A stretch of 64,000 nucleotides of DNA from Anaerolineales bacterium (lineage in GTDB: Bacteria; Chloroflexota; Anaerolineae; Anaerolineales; E44-bin32), in NCBI GenBank assembly GCA_037382465.1, contig JARRPX010000004.1, forward strand, positions 140,204 through 204,203, written 5' to 3'. Position numbers and translations under genes: made by a program. Below, one piece after another: positions 1,244 through 37,991 of the stretch. The stretch's first letter is position 1; each line of letters begins with the position of its first letter. The notes below the pieces were generated by a model, which worked only from the letters and a program-made list of their open reading frames with translations, was not told where the DNA came from and searched no databases.

Positions 1244-1924
1244 TTATTCCGATGTTTCCGAGACGTTCGTCCGTACCTGCTCACTCCAGCGTGCCCGCAG
1301 ATGCACACCGAACCTCGAAAGCATTTGGTGAAATCTGCTGCCGGCCGTACGTATCTGGGGAATGCGCAGGACGAGCAGCAGCACCACAACCGTCATGTAG
1401 ACCAGTGGTACGCGGATATCCGATTTTACCAACCATGTGTAGTGCACCGTCGCAAGGAACGCCCCGAGATATACGAAACGATGCAGGCGTTTCCAATTCT
1501 TTCCCAGCCTGCGCTGCCAACTCCGGGTCGAGGTGATCACCAAAGGTATGAGCAGCAGCCCGGAGGCGAGACCCACCAACGCAAAACGCTTATTGAAAAG
1601 CGCGTCCTTCAACGATCCGAAATCGAAACTGTAGTCGATTCCGATGAAAATGAAGAAATGCACCGCCACGTAACAGGCCGCATAGAGGCCGAACCACTTG
1701 CGCACAGGGATTAATTGCTTGAAGCCAAAAAGGGTATTCAACGGCGTAATCGCCAGCGTAATCGTCAGCAAGACCAGTGCGGTTTTGCCCGTACGCAGCG
1801 TCGCCGCCTGAATGGGGTTGGCCGTGAGGTCATTCCGGTACCAATCAAAAATCAGCAGACCCATCGGCGTCAGGGCTGCTGCATGGGTGACGAGTTGGAT
1901 GCCTATCCGGCGCAATCTTGTCAT
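1244..1924 (-). CDS. msrQ: Protein-methionine-sulfoxide reductase heme-binding subunit MsrQ (YedZ)
   Basis: 226-aa polytopic membrane protein of the ferric-reductase-like YedZ type. Its ATG overlaps the msrP stop (TGATG at 1922-1926), the classic msrPQ pairing. Confidence 0.8.
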   Translation of the reverse strand: MTRLRRIGIQLVTHAAALTPMGLLIFDWYRNDLTANPIQAATLRTGKTALVLLTITLAITPLNTLFGFKQLIPVRKWFGLYAACYVAVHFFIFIGIDYSFDFGSLKDALFNKRFALVGLASGLLLIPLVITSTRSWQRRLGKNWKRLHRFVYLGAFLATVHYTWLVKSDIRVPLVYMTVVVLLLVLRIPQIRTAGSRFHQMLSRFGVHLRARWSEQVRTNVSETSE

Positions 1925-2880
1925 CAGAAAAAGATCGATGGGCTCATGTCGGGATAGAGGGAAGCGACCTCATCGGCATACCCGTTGAAGAGCAGGGTGT
2001 CTCTTCGGCTAATTTCTCCGATGCGGCGCTCTTTTGCTTGAGACCAGCGAGGATGAGGCACATCGGGGTTGACGTTGGCGTAAAATCCATACTCATTTGG
2101 CGAAGATGCCATCCAAAGAGACGTCGGCTGTTCCGAAACCAGATCGATCTTGACGATCGATTTGATGCTTTTAAATCCGTATTTCCAGGGCACGACCAGC
2201 CGGATCGGCGCGCCGTTTTGAGCCGGCAGACTCTTACCGTACAGCCCGGTGGCCATGAGCGTCAGATCGTGCATGGCCTCATCGATGCGCAATCCTTCGA
2301 CGTACGGCCATACATACCAGGGACTTTGTTGATTTGTCATTACGTCCGGATCATACAGCGTTTCAAAGCGTACGTATTTAGCATCCGCCATCGGTTCGAC
2401 GTCCTCCAATAAACGGGCCAGGGGAAAGCCATTCCAGGGTATCACCATCGACCACCCCTCGACGCATCGCAGACGATAGACACGTTCTTCCTTCTCGAAG
2501 CCGGTCAAATCATCAAGATTGTAGATCTTTGGGTTATGGACCAAACCTCCGACTTCGACCTGCCACGGCGAAGTTCGGAAATTGCCAACGAGATCGACAA
2601 CGGTCGTCTTGTCCGGTGTAAATTCGTAAAAATTGTTGAAATGGGTGATGTCAGTGTAACTGTTCACCGGGTCGCCCAATTCATCCGTTGATGCGCTGCT
2701 TTCCGGCTGCATCGCATCATCGGCCGACGAAAGCGCAGTTGCGACGCCTCCACCGCAAGCCGCCAGGAGCAGCGAGCCCGAGGCCAGCGCTCCTGCGCCT
2801 TTCAGAAAATCGCGTCTTGATAGATAAACGTGCTCCGGAGTAATCTCTGAGGGACGTATTTTCACCATTTCTACCTCCAT
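1924..2880 (-). CDS. msrP: Protein-methionine-sulfoxide reductase catalytic subunit MsrP (YedY, molybdopterin)
   Basis: Twin-arginine signal [11 protein letters not shown]. The conserved block [24 protein letters not shown] is typical of YedY/MsrP oxidoreductase molybdopterin-binding domains. Confidence 0.85.
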
Positions 2881-4025: not shown

Positions 4026-4391
4026 CGTACACCTCCGCTTGTAATAAATTATTCAGAAAAGTACCAAACGCCTGGAAACCTGTGCATATTCTCAGATGAA
4101 GCTCCATCGTCAGCGTAAATTTCCGCCGCTTCGGATTGTCGCTGCACTGTTTGTAACACCCATACCCCCGCGAAGCCTCACCGCACCTCGTCGATTGTGA
4201 GGGTGCAGCGCCTACCTGCTCGTTGAGACATTCTACACCTTTTCGCGACATTGCATTCGATCTGGTTGCCTATCCCAAAGTATCTGCGATATACTCGTAA
4301 TTTGTCACAGATAATATCGCCCCGAACCACAGACCGGGAGAGATCCTCCCGGTTGTGCATGACGAGGAAAACGATATCAACGGAGGACGCC

Positions 4392-4628
4392 ATGACCAAA
4401 GTCAGCATCAAGTACTGCGCCGTTTGACACTACACGGATCGAGCCATCCGTGCGATGGCTGAAGTGCTGCAGAAATATGAAACAAGGATTGACGAGATCA
4501 CCCTTATCCCATCCGACGGCGGATGCTTCGAAGTCACGGTCGATGGCACCCTGGTGTACTCCAAACTCGCCACCGGACGTCACGTCGAATCGGGTGAGAC
4601 GGCGAATTACGTCGGAGACCACCTGTAG
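4392..4628 (+). CDS. Rdx/SelW-like selenoprotein (CxxU), in-frame TGA at 4425-4427 read as selenocysteine
   Basis: Absent from the ORF track. GGAGGA at 4382-4387, ATG at 4392. Reads MTKVSIKYCAV-U-HYTDRAIRAMAEVLQKYETRIDEITLIPSDGGCFEVTVDGTLVYSKLATGRH..., stop TAG 4626-4628. The YCxxU motif is at the N-terminus, and the ITLIPSxGGxFEVxVDG block matches the Rdx fold family. Confidence 0.7.
4433..4452 (+). promoter_or_regulatory. Candidate bacterial SECIS hairpin for the Rdx-like gene
   Basis: CACGGAT-cgagcc-ATCCGTG: 7-bp stem, 6-nt loop containing G. It starts 6 nt after TGA 4425-4427. Confidence 0.4.
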
Positions 4629-4640
4629 GAGGAACTCCCA

Positions 4641-5630
4641 TTGACTGCAAAGAAGGGGCGCGTCTTTTCCGGCGCCAGGCCGACCGGGCGCCAACATCTG
4701 GGCAACTATCTGGGTGCCATCAAGAACTACGTGGCGCTGCAAGATGAATACGAATGCATTTACTGCATCGTCGACCTGCATGCCTTGACGACACTCGAGA
4801 CGACCAAATCGCTCAAGTCGAACACCTACGAGATGGCGCTCGATTGGCTCGCCGCAGGACTGCGGCCGGAAGAGACGATCATCTTCATCCAATCCCACGT
4901 CCCAGAAGTCACTGAGCTGCACACCATCCTTTCAATGGTCGTTGGGCTCGGGAAATTGACCGATCTGCCTACATTCAAAGAAAAAGCGCGGCAGCAGCCG
5001 CACAACATCAACTACGGCCTGGTGGGCTATCCGATTTTGATGGCCGCCGATATTGCGCTCTATAGGGCCGAATTCGTGCCTGTTGGAATCGACCAGGCAC
5101 CGCACCTCGAATTTACCCGCGAGGTCGTGCGCTCGTTCAATCACCGCTACGAAACAAATGTGCTGATCGAGCCCCAGATGAAAAGCACGGAGGTCCCCAA
5201 AGTCCTCGGCACGGATGGCGTGCAGAAGATGAGTAAAAGCCTGGATAATCACATCGAACTGGCCGCTACACCGGAGGAGACCACTGCACGGGTGATGACC
5301 ATGGTGACCGATCCACAGAGAAAGCGCCGCTCGGATCCAGGTGACCCGGACGTGTGCAACGTCTTCACGATGCACAAAATCTTCTCTACGGAGGCGGACG
5401 TCAAAGAGATCAACATCGAGTGCCGCCGGGCAGGCATAGGCTGCGTGGATTGTAAGAAGCGATTCGCCCAGAATCTGAACGCTCATCTCGCCCCCTTCCG
5501 GGAAAAACGATCCGGGCTCAGCGAAAATCCCGATCAGGTCTGGAATATATTGGTGGATGGGGCAGCCCGCGCCAAACGAATTGCCGCGCAAACGATGATC
5601 GAAGTACGCGAAGCCGTCGGACTGCCCTGA
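4641..5630 (+). CDS. trpS: Tryptophan--tRNA ligase
   Basis: TTG start at 4641 preceded by AGGAGG (4627-4632). Class I signatures: GRQHLGNYLG (HIGH-like) and KMSKS. Length of 329 aa is typical of TrpRS. Confidence 0.95.
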   Translation: MTAKKGRVFSGARPTGRQHLGNYLGAIKNYVALQDEYECIYCIVDLHALTTLETTKSLKSNTYEMALDWLAAGLRPEETIIFIQSHVPEVTELHTILSMVVGLGKLTDLPTFKEKARQQPHNINYGLVGYPILMAADIALYRAEFVPVGIDQAPHLEFTREVVRSFNHRYETNVLIEPQMKSTEVPKVLGTDGVQKMSKSLDNHIELAATPEETTARVMTMVTDPQRKRRSDPGDPDVCNVFTMHKIFSTEADVKEINIECRRAGIGCVDCKKRFAQNLNAHLAPFREKRSGLSENPDQVWNILVDGAARAKRIAAQTMIEVREAVGLP

Positions 5631-5822: not shown

Positions 5823-6290
5823 ATGCGTGCGGTGCTGCAGCGCGTTCGCCGTGGGCGCGTGTCCATTGAAGGTGAAACCATCGCGGAGATCGACCGGGGG
5901 CTGGTCATCCTGATCGGAATCGGCCACGAGGATTCCGCAGAAGACGCCCGTCGGTTGGCGGAAAAATGCGCCGCGCTGCGAATCTTCGAGGACGATGCGG
6001 GTAAAACGAACCTTTCCGTTCAGGATATCGAAGGCCAGGCTATCGTGATCTCTCAATTCACGCTGTATGCCGACACACGCAAAGGCCGGAGGCCGAGTTT
6101 CACCAAGGCCGCCAGGCCGGAGACGGCAGAACCGCTCGTAGAGATCTTCGCAGCCCACTTACGAGATTATGGAGTTCCAACACAAACCGGTGTTTTTGGG
6201 GCGCACATGCTGGTGGACATCGAAAACGACGGGCCGTCTAAGATCCCAAAGCAACTCTATTCATCCATATTCGAATTTAGGATACTTTAG
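5823..6290 (+). CDS. dtd: D-aminoacyl-tRNA deacylase with an atypical C-terminal tail
   Basis: MRAVLQRV...[16 protein letters not shown]...NDGP is the Dtd family pattern. After NDGP (from nt 6237) the usual VTxxL ending is replaced by 17 residues encoded in AT-rich DNA. Confidence 0.85.
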
Positions 6291-37446: not shown

Positions 37447-37720
37447 AAAAAAACCTTCGTCCGTTCAGGGACGAAGGTGCGCTCCGCGGTACCACCCTGC
37501 TTCCCGACCGTTTGGAAAAAGAAGTGTCTGCCAGCGTCATCGGGCTGCTCGGATCGCGCTAACGGGCGATTCCCGCTCTCGACTACTTTGTTCGCCGGGA
37601 GGGCTTGTCCAAAATGGACGGCAGGCGAGTTCAGCCTTTTCTACGGCGTCCCGTGACCGCCTTGCCGGGCTTTCACCCTCCCCGACTCGCTGACGGATGG
37701 CCTACTACTCCTGCCAAAGC
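37447..37720 (-). promoter_or_regulatory. T-box riboswitch leader, Leu specifier CUC, with intrinsic terminator
   Basis: All read on the minus strand. Stem I base GGCAGG(37715-37710)/CCTGCC. Specifier loop AGUAGUA...GAA-CUC-G, with CUC at 37629-37627. AGCGAGUCGGGGAGGGUGAAAGCCCGGC distal region. T-box GGGUGGUACCGCG (37497-37485). Terminator ACCUUCGUCC-cugaac-GGACGAAGGU followed by U7 (37478-37447). Confidence 0.85.
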
Positions 37721-37737
37721 CGGATATTCAAATGGTT

Positions 37738-37813
37738 TGGTGGACCCAGTGGGATTCGAACCCACGACCTCCTCAATGCCATTGAGGCGCGCTCCCAACT
37801 GCGCCATGGGCCC
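37738..37813 (-). tRNA. tRNA-Ala (anticodon GGC), CCA encoded
   Basis: 76-nt cloverleaf parsed by hand: acceptor GGGCCCA/TGGGTCC with the G3:U70 Ala identity pair, D arm GCGC-AGTTGGGA-GCGC, anticodon arm CCTCA-ATGGCAT-TGAGG, T arm GTGGG-TTCGAAT-CCCAC, and ACCA end. Confidence 0.93.
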
Positions 37814-37818
37814 GGGAG

Positions 37819-37891
37819 TGGACCTGGCGGGATTCGAACCCGCGACCTCATCAGTGCGATTGATGCGCGCTCCCAACTGCGCTACAGGCCC
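37819..37891 (-). tRNA. tRNA-Ala (anticodon CGC), CCA not encoded
   Basis: 73-nt cloverleaf: acceptor GGGCCTG/CAGGTCC with G3:U70, the same D arm, anticodon arm CATCA-ATCGCAC-TGATG, T arm GCGGG-TTCGAAT-CCCGC, discriminator A followed by CTC. A 5-nt spacer separates it from the next tRNA. Confidence 0.9.
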
Positions 37892-37907
37892 CCGCCGAGG
37901 TGTTGGC

Positions 37908-37936
37908 ATTGTACTTCAGCGCCATATCACTGTCAA
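37908..37936 (-). promoter_or_regulatory. Near-consensus sigma-70-type promoter for the tRNA-Ala pair (and possibly T-box-leuS)
   Basis: Minus strand: TTGACA (37936-37931), 17-nt spacer, TACAAT (37913-37908). The mature tRNA 5' end lies 17 nt downstream of the -10. Confidence 0.6.
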
Positions 37937-37944
37937 GAAACGCA

Positions 37945-37973
37945 TTGATCTCCACTTCCGCCGCAACTATAAT
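37945..37973 (+). promoter_or_regulatory. Sigma-70-type promoter for the M24 peptidase operon
   Basis: TTGATC (37945-37950), 17-nt spacer, TATAAT (37968-37973). AGGAGG at 37981-37986 and ATG at 37992. Divergent from the tRNA promoter. Confidence 0.6.
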
Positions 37974-37991
37974 GCCATGTAGGAGGAGCGC

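What the first reader, a model, noticed from the sequence alone, without database searches (positions are those of the whole stretch)
4392..4628. Hidden SelW/Rdx-family selenoprotein gene (CxxU with in-frame TGA) directly upstream of trpS
The gene is invisible in the ORF track because a TGA splits it.
- Start: ATG 4392 has a strong RBS (GGAGGA 4382-4387, 4-nt spacer).
- Reading: MTKVSIKYCAV-[TGA 4425-4427]-HYTDRAIRAMAEVLQKYETRIDEITLIPSDGGCFEVTVDGTLVYSKLATGRHVESGETANYVGDHL, with stop TAG at 4626-4628.
- Motif: read as Sec, the TGA completes Y-C-A-V-U, the CxxU redox motif in the N-terminal position used by Rdx/SelW proteins. The downstream ITLIPSxGGxFEVxVDGxLVxSK block is the family core.
- Hairpin: a 7-bp stem (4433-4452) begins 6 nt after the TGA, where a bacterial SECIS would sit.
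- Context: the stop TAG is embedded in the trpS Shine-Dalgarno (TAGGAGGA), so co-transcription and possibly coupling with trpS is likely.
- A naive caller would instead report the 181-aa antisense ORF 4377..4922.
Basis: partly seen in the sequence, partly recalled or inferred. Interest (0 to 1): 0.65.

Follow-up and report, generated by a model that had tools for sequence, protein, structure and literature searches.

The report
Mis-annotated SelW-like selenoprotein gene before trpS
A small redox-protein gene that gene finders cut short is very probably a real selenoprotein gene of a long-known bacterial family (SelW-like/Rdx), with its UGA read as selenocysteine through a conserved RNA hairpin; it corrects an annotation and does not reveal a new kind of system.

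Summary
Window 4392-4628 (+) encodes a 78-residue Rdx/SelW-like protein with TGA (4425-4427) at the U of a CxxU motif. With that codon read as Cys, it scores 72.5 bits on Pfam Rdx and 57.2 bits on TIGR02174, both above cut-off.

- **TGA conservation:** all 71 related loci, from at least six phyla, keep TGA there with protein conservation on both sides. Distant full-length homologues and six solved structures have Cys at that position.
- **SECIS:** The real element is 4442-4460 (AGCCAUC-CGUGC-GAUGGCU), which covaries and has an invariant loop G.
- **Sec machinery:** in nine Planctomycetota species the gene lies beside selD or selB-selA. I could not show selA/B/C/D in the window's own genome; that remains the main gap.
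- **Not an error:** TGA is the commonest ordinary stop codon in the window, and independent assemblies confirm the TGA.

Bacterial SelW-like CxxU selenoproteins have been known since 2005, so this is a new member of a known kind. About 186 of 201 public protein entries for this clade are truncated.

The gene sits in a conserved order with a four-Cys, [4Fe-4S]-type trpS and dtd in Anaerolineae, and after ettA in Planctomycetota. That link to translation genes is unexplained.

The parts
4382..4387 (+). Shine-Dalgarno GGAGGA, 4 nt before the start codon
   Evidence: Read directly.
4392..4628 (+). Full coding sequence of the SelW-like/Rdx selenoprotein: 78 residues with Sec at position 12 and stop TAG at 4626-4628
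   Evidence: Translation. Pfam PF10262 scores 72.5 bits over residues 3-74, and TIGR02174 scores 57.2 bits against a cut-off of 34.2. 71 of 71 related loci share the same architecture.
4416..4418 (+). TGC, Cys9, the first residue of the CxxU redox motif
   Evidence: Invariant in the 72-sequence DNA alignment and in the protein alignment.
4425..4427 (+). In-frame TGA, inferred selenocysteine codon (U12)
   Evidence: TGA in all 72 distinct aligned sequences. It aligns with the second Cys of CxxC in homologues and in PDB entries 2FA8, 3DEX, 2OBK and 2OKA. Unchanged in independent assemblies.
4442..4460 (+). Bacterial SECIS-type hairpin. Stem 4442-4448 pairs with 4454-4460. The loop is 4449-4453 (CGUGC), with invariant G at 4450 and U at 4451. 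14 nt separate it from the TGA.
   Evidence: 78.6% of cells paired. Compensatory double changes at three pairs (9, 18 and 13 sequences). Covariation score 0.353 against 0.162 or less for slid controls, and 0 of 500 shuffles reach it. The loop G is invariant in 72 of 72. 58 of 72 sequences have a perfect hairpin of at least 5 bp with an N-G-U loop, against a mean of 0.9 in shuffles.
4455..4457 (+). Internal ATG (Met22), lying inside the 3' arm of the hairpin. It is the false start used by gene callers for the truncated 57-aa product.
   Evidence: ORF 4455-4628. All 52 closest database proteins are 56-63 aa and cover only this part.
4628..4633 (+). Shine-Dalgarno GGAGGA of trpS, sharing its first G with the Rdx stop codon TAG
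   Evidence: Read directly.
4641..5630 (+). trpS, tryptophan--tRNA ligase with the four-Cys [4Fe-4S]-type motif (Cys239, 261, 268 and 271; nt 5355-5453). Its start is 12 nt after the Rdx stop.
   Evidence: TIGR00233 at 303 bits. The best PDB match is 2G36, with all four Cys aligned. The motif's role comes from PMC2954223. The Rdx-trpS gene order is kept in 17 Anaerolineae-type species loci.
5823..6290 (+). dtd, D-aminoacyl-tRNA deacylase, the third gene of the conserved Rdx-trpS-dtd order
   Evidence: TIGR00256 at 166 bits. Found downstream of Rdx in 18 loci, and directly adjacent (with no trpS between) in L013-L018.

Best explanation
Window 4392-4628 is one gene for a 78-residue thioredoxin-like Rdx (SelW-like) protein whose active site is Cys9-Ala-Val-Sec12.

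Proposed mechanism:
- Ribosomes start at ATG 4392.
- At UGA 4425 the mRNA hairpin 4442-4460, which presents G4450 and U4451 in its loop, recruits SelB carrying GTP and Sec-tRNA(Sec).
- Selenocysteine is inserted in place of termination, and translation continues to TAG 4626.
- The product most likely acts as a small thiol/selenol oxidoreductase through a selenenylsulfide between Cys9 and Sec12.
- Its stop codon overlaps the trpS ribosome-binding site. It is therefore probably transcribed, and perhaps translationally coupled, with trpS and dtd.

Shown here: the reading frame, family membership, conservation of the TGA, the Sec/Cys pairing, the covarying hairpin, and linkage of the family to sel genes in other genomes.

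Inferred, not shown: SelB binding, actual selenium insertion in this organism, the redox chemistry, and co-transcription.
For: - **Family:** PF10262 at 72.5 bits, aligned across the TGA; TIGR02174 at 57.2 bits against a cut-off of 34.2.
- **TGA conservation:** 71 of 71 loci from Chloroflexota, Planctomycetota, Acidimicrobiia, Gemmatimonadota, Acidobacteriota and Armatimonadota have TGA at the CxxU position. All have a conserved N-terminus of the form M-x-K-[IV]-x-I-x-Y-C-x-x upstream of it. The search patterns carried Cys at that position, so they did not favour TGA.
- **Sec/Cys pairing:** CxxC in P0085, P0091, P0107, P0112, P0159, P0165 and P0167, and in six solved bacterial Rdx structures.
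- **Hairpin:** covariation score 0.353 against 0.162 or less for slid controls, and 0 of 500 shuffles reach it. The loop G is invariant although the codon encodes S, G, R or W. All 40 Ser codons there are AGY and none is UCN.
- **Link to Sec machinery:** a selD that itself contains Sec starts 276-412 nt after the Rdx TGA in 4 species. selB-selA lies 2.3-7.5 kb downstream in 5 species. Identities are confirmed by TIGR00476 at 366 bits, TIGR00475 at 360-369 bits and TIGR00474 at 539 bits.
- **No reassignment:** TGA ends 22 of the 41 long ORFs in the window, so the codon is not reassigned genome-wide.
- **Not an error:** the TGA is present in independent assemblies.
- **Literature:** SelW-like CXXU selenoproteins are an established bacterial family with few Cys forms (PMC1088965, PMC1794560). 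SelB is reported in Anaerolineales single-cell genomes and in Anaerolinea thermophila (PMC4959059).
Against: - No tRNA-Sec, selA, selB or selD is present in the 64-kb window or in any of the Anaerolineales loci I held. The rest of this genome could not be searched.
- Taken alone, the window's hairpin does not fold better than shuffled sequence (z = -0.73). Its support comes from comparison across species.
- No Rfam family matched.
- There is no proteomic, selenium-labelling or transcript evidence. The one metatranscriptome found covered only trpS.
- 14 of 72 sequences lack a perfect 5-bp stem; they have a mismatch or bulge.
Confidence: 0.9

Rival explanations
1. The TGA terminates translation in this organism. 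On this view the gene is a relic of a selenoprotein gene in a lineage that has lost Sec decoding. Either nothing functional is made, or only the 57-residue C-terminal fragment from ATG 4455, which lacks the redox motif.
For: No Sec machinery was found in the window or in the Anaerolineales loci. All public gene calls start at the internal ATG.
Against: The start codon, the ribosome-binding site, the 11 upstream codons, the TGA itself and the hairpin are all maintained across Anaerolineae species that differ by up to about 55% in protein sequence. Changes within the stem preserve pairing, for example A-U to G-U in L010 and C-G to U-G in L007. A dead gene would not keep these features. The internal ATG has no evident Shine-Dalgarno and lies inside the hairpin. 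Anaerolineales are reported to encode SelB.
Confidence: 0.05
2. The UGA is read through by a near-cognate tRNA (Trp or Cys) without selenium. On this view the hairpin stimulates read-through without recruiting SelB. The position upstream of trpS would then reflect a regulatory leader that senses tRNA-Trp.
For: The gene lies immediately upstream of trpS in 17 Anaerolineae-type loci. One public entry (P0086) has Trp at this position. It is established knowledge that tRNA-Trp is a near-cognate reader of UGA.
Against: The TGA sits exactly at the catalytic CxxC/CxxU position of a known selenoprotein family. The same TGA and hairpin occur in about 50 loci with no trpS nearby, nine of them beside selD or selB-selA. 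Trp at a catalytic Cys/Sec site would abolish the redox motif. The W in P0086 is most simply a TGA translated under another genetic code by a gene caller.
Confidence: 0.03
3. The real gene is the 181-aa antisense ORF 4377-4922, and the + strand reading is coincidental.
For: It is the longest uninterrupted ORF over the region.
Against: It has no Pfam match. It overlaps the well-supported trpS on the opposite strand. The + strand frame is conserved across phyla with a strong family match. No public annotation calls it.
Confidence: 0.01

Closest known systems
Bacterial SelW-like selenoproteins (Rdx family, Pfam PF10262; NCBIfam TIGR02174 'CXXU_selWTH'), described by Zhang, Fomenko and Gladyshev 2005 and Zhang et al. 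2006
   Same: About 75-80 residues. An N-terminal CxxU motif directly after the first beta-strand. An in-frame UGA followed by a small hairpin with a G in the apical loop. Few Cys-containing relatives within the Sec-using clade.
   Different: Nothing in kind. This clade is marked by LVYSKLATGRH/F and spans Anaerolineae, Planctomycetota and other phyla. In Anaerolineae it has a conserved position before trpS-dtd. It is almost entirely mis-called in public protein sets.
Cys-type bacterial Rdx proteins with solved structures: 2FA8 (Atu0228), 3DEX (SAV_2001), 2OBK, 2OKA, 2OJL, 2P0G
   Same: Alignable over residues 3-62 or beyond. The YC-x-x-C motif aligns with Y8-C9-A-V-U12, and the IPSxGGxFE core is shared.
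   Different: They carry Cys where this gene has UGA. They are longer (103-108 aa) and are only distantly related, with E-values from 2e-12 to 2e-4.
Escherichia coli fdhF-type bacterial SECIS (recalled from established literature, not tested here)
   Same: A hairpin within the coding sequence just downstream of the UGA, with an essential G-U in the apical loop and a fixed spacing to the UGA.
   Different: The spacing is 14 nt to the stem base, whereas about 11 nt is quoted for fdhF. There is no obvious bulged U. A subgroup of 14 sequences has the loop starting 20 nt after the U of UGA where the rest have 24 nt. SelB binding was not tested.
Eukaryotic selenoprotein W
   Same: The same Rdx fold family and the same CxxU motif position (Pfam match).
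   Different: Eukaryotic SelW uses a 3'-UTR kink-turn SECIS. Here the element is a coding-region hairpin, and no Rfam SECIS model matched.

Membership tests
Rdx / SelW-SelT-SelH family (PF10262, TIGR02174) | Profile score above the curated threshold over the whole domain | tested here: met
   PF10262 at 72.5 bits (cut-off 22.6), residues 3-74 against profile positions 1-72 of 74. TIGR02174 at 57.2 bits (cut-off 34.2).
Rdx / SelW-SelT-SelH family (PF10262, TIGR02174) | CxxC or CxxU redox motif at the N-terminal position of the domain | tested here: met
   C9-A-V-U12 aligns with the YCTQC motif of 2FA8, 3DEX, 2OBK and 2OKA, and with CxxC in seven metagenomic homologues.
Rdx / SelW-SelT-SelH family (PF10262, TIGR02174) | Thioredoxin-like fold | not tested
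No structure prediction was attempted. The fold is inferred from sequence similarity to solved Rdx structures.
Bacterial selenoprotein gene (Sec decoding of UGA) | In-frame UGA with protein conservation on both sides in orthologues | tested here: met
   71 of 71 loci and 72 of 72 distinct sequences.
Bacterial selenoprotein gene (Sec decoding of UGA) | Cys-containing homologues with Cys aligned to the UGA | tested here: met
Bacterial selenoprotein gene (Sec decoding of UGA) | SECIS hairpin shortly downstream of the UGA with a conserved G in a small apical loop | tested here: met
   Hairpin 4442-4460. It covaries, and the loop G is invariant. The criterion is as stated in PMC1088965.
Bacterial selenoprotein gene (Sec decoding of UGA) | selA, selB, selC (tRNA-Sec) and selD present in the same genome | not testable with these tools
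   All are absent from the 64-kb window. Indirect support: sel genes lie next to this family in nine Planctomycetota species, and SelB is reported in Anaerolineales.
Bacterial selenoprotein gene (Sec decoding of UGA) | Selenium actually incorporated (75Se labelling or mass spectrometry) | not testable with these tools
   This needs an experiment.
NF041051 SelTWH_Campy (NCBIfam equivalog) | Score above the equivalog cut-off | tested here: not met
   72.1 bits against a cut-off of 88. It is related to that equivalog group but is not a member.

The most novel reading that the evidence does not exclude
The SelW-like selenoprotein may be a dedicated redox partner of the translation apparatus.

Context that prompts this:
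- In Anaerolineae the gene is kept directly in front of a TrpRS carrying the four Cys ligands of the anticodon-side [4Fe-4S] cluster, and of D-aminoacyl-tRNA deacylase.
- In Planctomycetota it follows the translational throttle EttA and precedes selD or selB-selA.

Two versions are not excluded:
- The protein keeps the cluster ligands of TrpRS, or other translation-factor thiols, reduced.
- Placing trpS behind a UGA-Sec ORF ties TrpRS synthesis to how UGA is decoded, since tRNA-Trp is a near-cognate competitor at UGA.
Probability: 0.1. Interest if true: 0.7.

Novelty: new member of a known kind. Interest (0 to 1): 0.3.

Why it matters
- **Annotation:** about 186 of the 201 public protein entries retrieved for this clade are N-terminally truncated and lack the active site. 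The fix is simple: extend to the upstream ATG and mark TGA as Sec.
- **A missing client:** Anaerolinea thermophila is reported to encode SelB but has no annotated Sec-containing dehydrogenase (PMC4959059). A hidden SelW-like gene of this kind, if that genome has one, would supply a selenoprotein for that machinery.
- **A SECIS data set:** the 72-sequence alignment gives a clean covarying SECIS example across six phyla.
- **A lead on function:** the repeated placement among translation genes (Fe-S-type trpS, dtd, ettA, selB/selA/selD) is a testable lead on the still unknown function of bacterial SelW-like proteins.

Tried and rejected
it is present in this sequence, but across 72 relatives only 41% of cells pair and it is no better than shuffles. 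Rejected as the SECIS.
- **Rfam:** no SECIS or tRNA-Sec model matched in the window. The only hit near the locus was a chance S15 leader match at E = 4.9.
- **tRNA-Sec:** ARAGORN found none in the window or in 52 loci.
- **Single-sequence folding of 4420-4480:** not better than shuffles, z = -0.73. Only comparative data support the hairpin.
- **RNAalifold on the alignment:** it recovered only the three inner pairs, 33-45, 34-44 and 35-43.
- **Exhaustive search with the joined protein:** The window's own 57-aa ORF was used in its place.
- **Scan of the window for other TGA-split genes with redox motifs:** far too permissive, with 294 of 677 candidates passing. Discarded. The gene map shows no other obvious split gene.
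- **SelB protein search aimed at named Anaerolineae or Bellilinea entries:** the best 120 hits were all Planctomycetota. It gave no link to the window's lineage.
- **Metatranscriptome X21:** only fragments inside trpS and no coverage of the Rdx gene, so co-transcription could not be judged.
- **Promoter and terminator scan:** one promoter-like site at 4266-4295, but counts are at chance level. There is no + strand terminator-like site between Rdx and trpS.
- **SelD and SelB queries written from memory:** used only as leads. The hits were confirmed with NCBIfam models and with sequences taken from the loci.

Full report
**1. The observation**

Window 4392-4628 on the + strand reads MTKVSIKYCAV, then TGA (4425-4427), then HYTDRAIRAMAEVLQKYETRIDEITLIPSDGGCFEVTVDGTLVYSKLATGRHVESGETANYVGDHL, then TAG. 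GGAGGA lies at 4382-4387, 4 nt before the ATG. The stop TAG (4626-4628) shares its G with a second GGAGGA (4628-4633), which lies 7 nt before the TTG start of trpS at 4641. trpS is confirmed by TIGR00233 at 303 bits. The antisense 181-aa ORF 4377-4922 exists and matches no Pfam family.

**2. Family**

With the TGA read as Cys, the 78-residue product scores 72.5 bits on Pfam Rdx (PF10262; cut-off 22.6). It aligns from residue 3 to residue 74, across the TGA. It scores 57.2 bits on TIGR02174 'CXXU_selWTH' (cut-off 34.2). It stays below the cut-off of the Campylobacter-type equivalog NF041051, at 72.1 against 88.

Six solved bacterial Rdx structures (2FA8, 3DEX, 2OBK, 2OKA, 2OJL, 2P0G) align over the N-terminal part. 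Their YCTQC motif places the second Cys exactly on codon 12.

**3. Is the TGA conserved?**

The 52 closest proteins in the 5.8-billion-protein collection are all 56-63 aa and cover only the part after the TGA. In Bellilinea caldifistulae the DNA upstream of such a truncated call reads MKLVITIEYCAV-TGA-HYTERAI... in frame.

A scan of one genome per species returned 71 related loci. They come from Anaerolineales and other Chloroflexota, Planctomycetota, Acidimicrobiia, Gemmatimonadota, Acidobacteriota and Armatimonadota. All 71 have TGA at the CxxU position, preceded by a start codon and a conserved N-terminal strand. The search patterns carried Cys at that position, so the result is not a selection artefact.

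An exhaustive HMMER search with the window's own 57-aa ORF found 199 cluster representatives. Of the 201 family proteins retrieved in all, about 186 are truncated calls and eight or nine are full-length CxxC forms. One entry shows Trp at the position and one shows Ser. The Trp is most simply a TGA translated under another genetic code.

**4. Not an error and not a reassigned codon**

Independent contigs from metagenomes of different years and studies cover 4300-4727 with seven strain differences, none at the TGA. TGA ends 22 of the 41 long ORFs in the window, including trpS itself. It is therefore the ordinary stop codon of this genome, and any decoding at 4425 must be local.

**5. The recoding signal**

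I aligned 72 distinct 75-nt segments, from 12 nt before the TGA to 62 nt after it. The alignment has no gaps.

It is indistinguishable from shuffles, 265 of 500 of which reach its covariation score.

The hairpin 4442-4448 with 4454-4460 pairs in 78.6% of cells. Three of its pairs show compensatory double changes, in 9, 18 and 13 sequences. Its covariation score is 0.353, against 0.162 or less when the 3' arm is slid, and no shuffle out of 500 reaches it.

The second loop base (G4450) is invariant in 72 of 72 sequences, although its codon encodes Ser, Gly, Arg or Trp. All 40 Ser codons at that site are AGY and none is UCN. That points to selection on the RNA and not on the protein.

58 of 72 sequences have a perfect stem of at least 5 bp with an N-G-U loop that starts 24 nt (43 sequences), 22 nt (1) or 20 nt (14) after the U of UGA. 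Shuffled controls give 0.9 on average and at most 5. The remaining 14 have a mismatch in the stem.

A small hairpin with a G in the apical loop is the published criterion for bacterial SECIS elements (PMC1088965). The similarity to the fdhF element's G-U loop is from my own knowledge. On its own, the window's hairpin does not fold unusually well (z = -0.73). The evidence for it is comparative.

**6. Link to the Sec machinery**

In four Planctomycetota loci (L058, L063, L075, L076) a selD gene starts 276-412 nt after the Rdx TGA. That selD is itself interrupted by TGA at the catalytic position (SCAG-TGA-AGKL). In five others (L040, L042, L048, L064, L069) selB-selA lie 2.3-7.5 kb downstream. 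Curated models confirm all three: selD at 366 bits, selB at 360-369 bits and selA at 539 bits.

These are two separate gene arrangements, so they count as two events and not nine. Even so, they tie this Rdx clade to selenocysteine.

The window and the Anaerolineales loci hold no sel gene and no tRNA-Sec. I could not reach the rest of the genome, and a SelB protein search returned only Planctomycetota among its best 120 hits. The literature reports selenocysteine-specific elongation factors in Anaerolineales single-cell genomes and in Anaerolinea thermophila, which has no annotated Sec-containing dehydrogenase (PMC4959059).

The maintained start codon, TGA and pairing-preserving stem changes among the window's closest relatives (L005, L007, L010, L012) argue against a dead gene.

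**7. Context**

The order Rdx-trpS-dtd is kept in the window and in 17 Anaerolineae-type species loci, whose Rdx proteins are only 42-87% identical to the window's. The gap between Rdx and trpS is usually 4-13 nt. In L013-L018 the Rdx gene sits directly before dtd.

There is no + strand terminator-like site between Rdx and trpS. The one promoter-like site upstream (4266-4295) is at chance level. The single metatranscriptome found covers only trpS. Co-transcription is likely but not shown.

The TrpRS is closest to Thermotoga maritima 2G36 among solved structures, and all four Cys residues of its motif align. That motif binds a [4Fe-4S] cluster next to the anticodon (PMC2954223). All 18 Rdx-linked trpS genes have the four Cys.

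In 12 Planctomycetota loci the gene immediately upstream on the same strand is ettA, confirmed at 911 bits.

The family is thus repeatedly placed among translation genes. This is an association only, and no mechanism is shown.

**8. Comparison with what is known, and verdict**

Bacterial SelW-like CXXU selenoproteins were described in 2005. They were the most abundant selenoprotein family in the Sargasso Sea data, with 48 Sec forms against 7 Cys forms. They were also noted to have few or no Cys homologues in Sec-using organisms (PMC1088965, PMC1794560). NCBI maintains a family model for them.

The finding is therefore correct but ordinary in kind. It is a new, systematically mis-annotated member of a known selenoprotein family, with the SECIS position corrected to 4442-4460. 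What goes beyond the known picture is the breadth of the Sec-only clade, the clean covariation data, and the conserved neighbourhood with an Fe-S-type trpS, dtd, ettA and the sel genes.

My confidence that the TGA encodes selenocysteine is 0.9.

Noticed in passing
window 4641-5630 (Cys codons at 5355-5357, 5421-5423, 5442-5444, 5451-5453): The TrpRS carries a C-x21-C-x6-C-x2-C motif. It aligns residue for residue with the [4Fe-4S] ligands of Thermotoga maritima TrpRS (PDB 2G36). All 18 trpS genes that follow the Rdx gene in Anaerolineae-type loci have it.
   Followed up: partly
L058 10389-11471, L063 8471-9580, L075 10235-11353, L076 8763-10004: The selD genes next to the Rdx gene in Planctomycetota are themselves selenoprotein genes, with an in-frame TGA at SCAG-TGA-AGKL. 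Ordinary gene callers would truncate them in the same way.
   Followed up: partly
L064 7930-9609 and 11 other Planctomycetota loci (L033, L040, L042, L048, L049, L054, L057, L062, L065, L069, L076): ettA, the energy-dependent translational throttle, lies immediately upstream of the Sec-Rdx gene on the same strand. It scores 911 bits on NF008775.
   Followed up: partly
L013-L018 (for example L013 6112-6843): One Anaerolineales clade has the Rdx gene directly before dtd with no trpS between them. The conserved partner may therefore be the trpS-dtd unit as a whole and not trpS alone.
   Followed up: no
L015 (JAIWHF010000138.1, 6.4 kb): A contig filed under a 'Methanosarcinales archaeon' MAG carries an Rdx-dtd locus whose Rdx product is nearly identical to that of Anaerolineales MAG loci L013-L014. 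It is probably a binning contaminant.
   Followed up: no
protein P0086: A public protein entry reads LEYCAAWNY, with Trp where relatives have TGA. The TGA was probably translated as Trp by a gene caller run with another genetic code. P0166 has Ser (CAQS) at the same site.
   Followed up: no
window 1247-2880 (- strand): msrQ and msrP, the methionine-sulfoxide reductase pair, lie about 1.5 kb upstream on the opposite strand. The arrangement is kept in the closest relatives (L005, L007, L010-L012). This is another oxidative-repair function near the Rdx gene.
   Followed up: no
A1 rows L019, L024, L026, L027, L028, L030, L044, L051, L070, L071 and others (14 sequences): In a subgroup the hairpin loop (N-G-U-G-A) starts 20 nt after the U of UGA where the rest have 24 nt. 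The SECIS register has shifted by 4 nt while the protein alignment stays ungapped.
   Followed up: partly
window 37738-37891 (- strand): Two tandem tRNA-Ala genes, with anticodons GGC and CGC. The ORF 37605-37982 that overlaps them is spurious.
   Followed up: no
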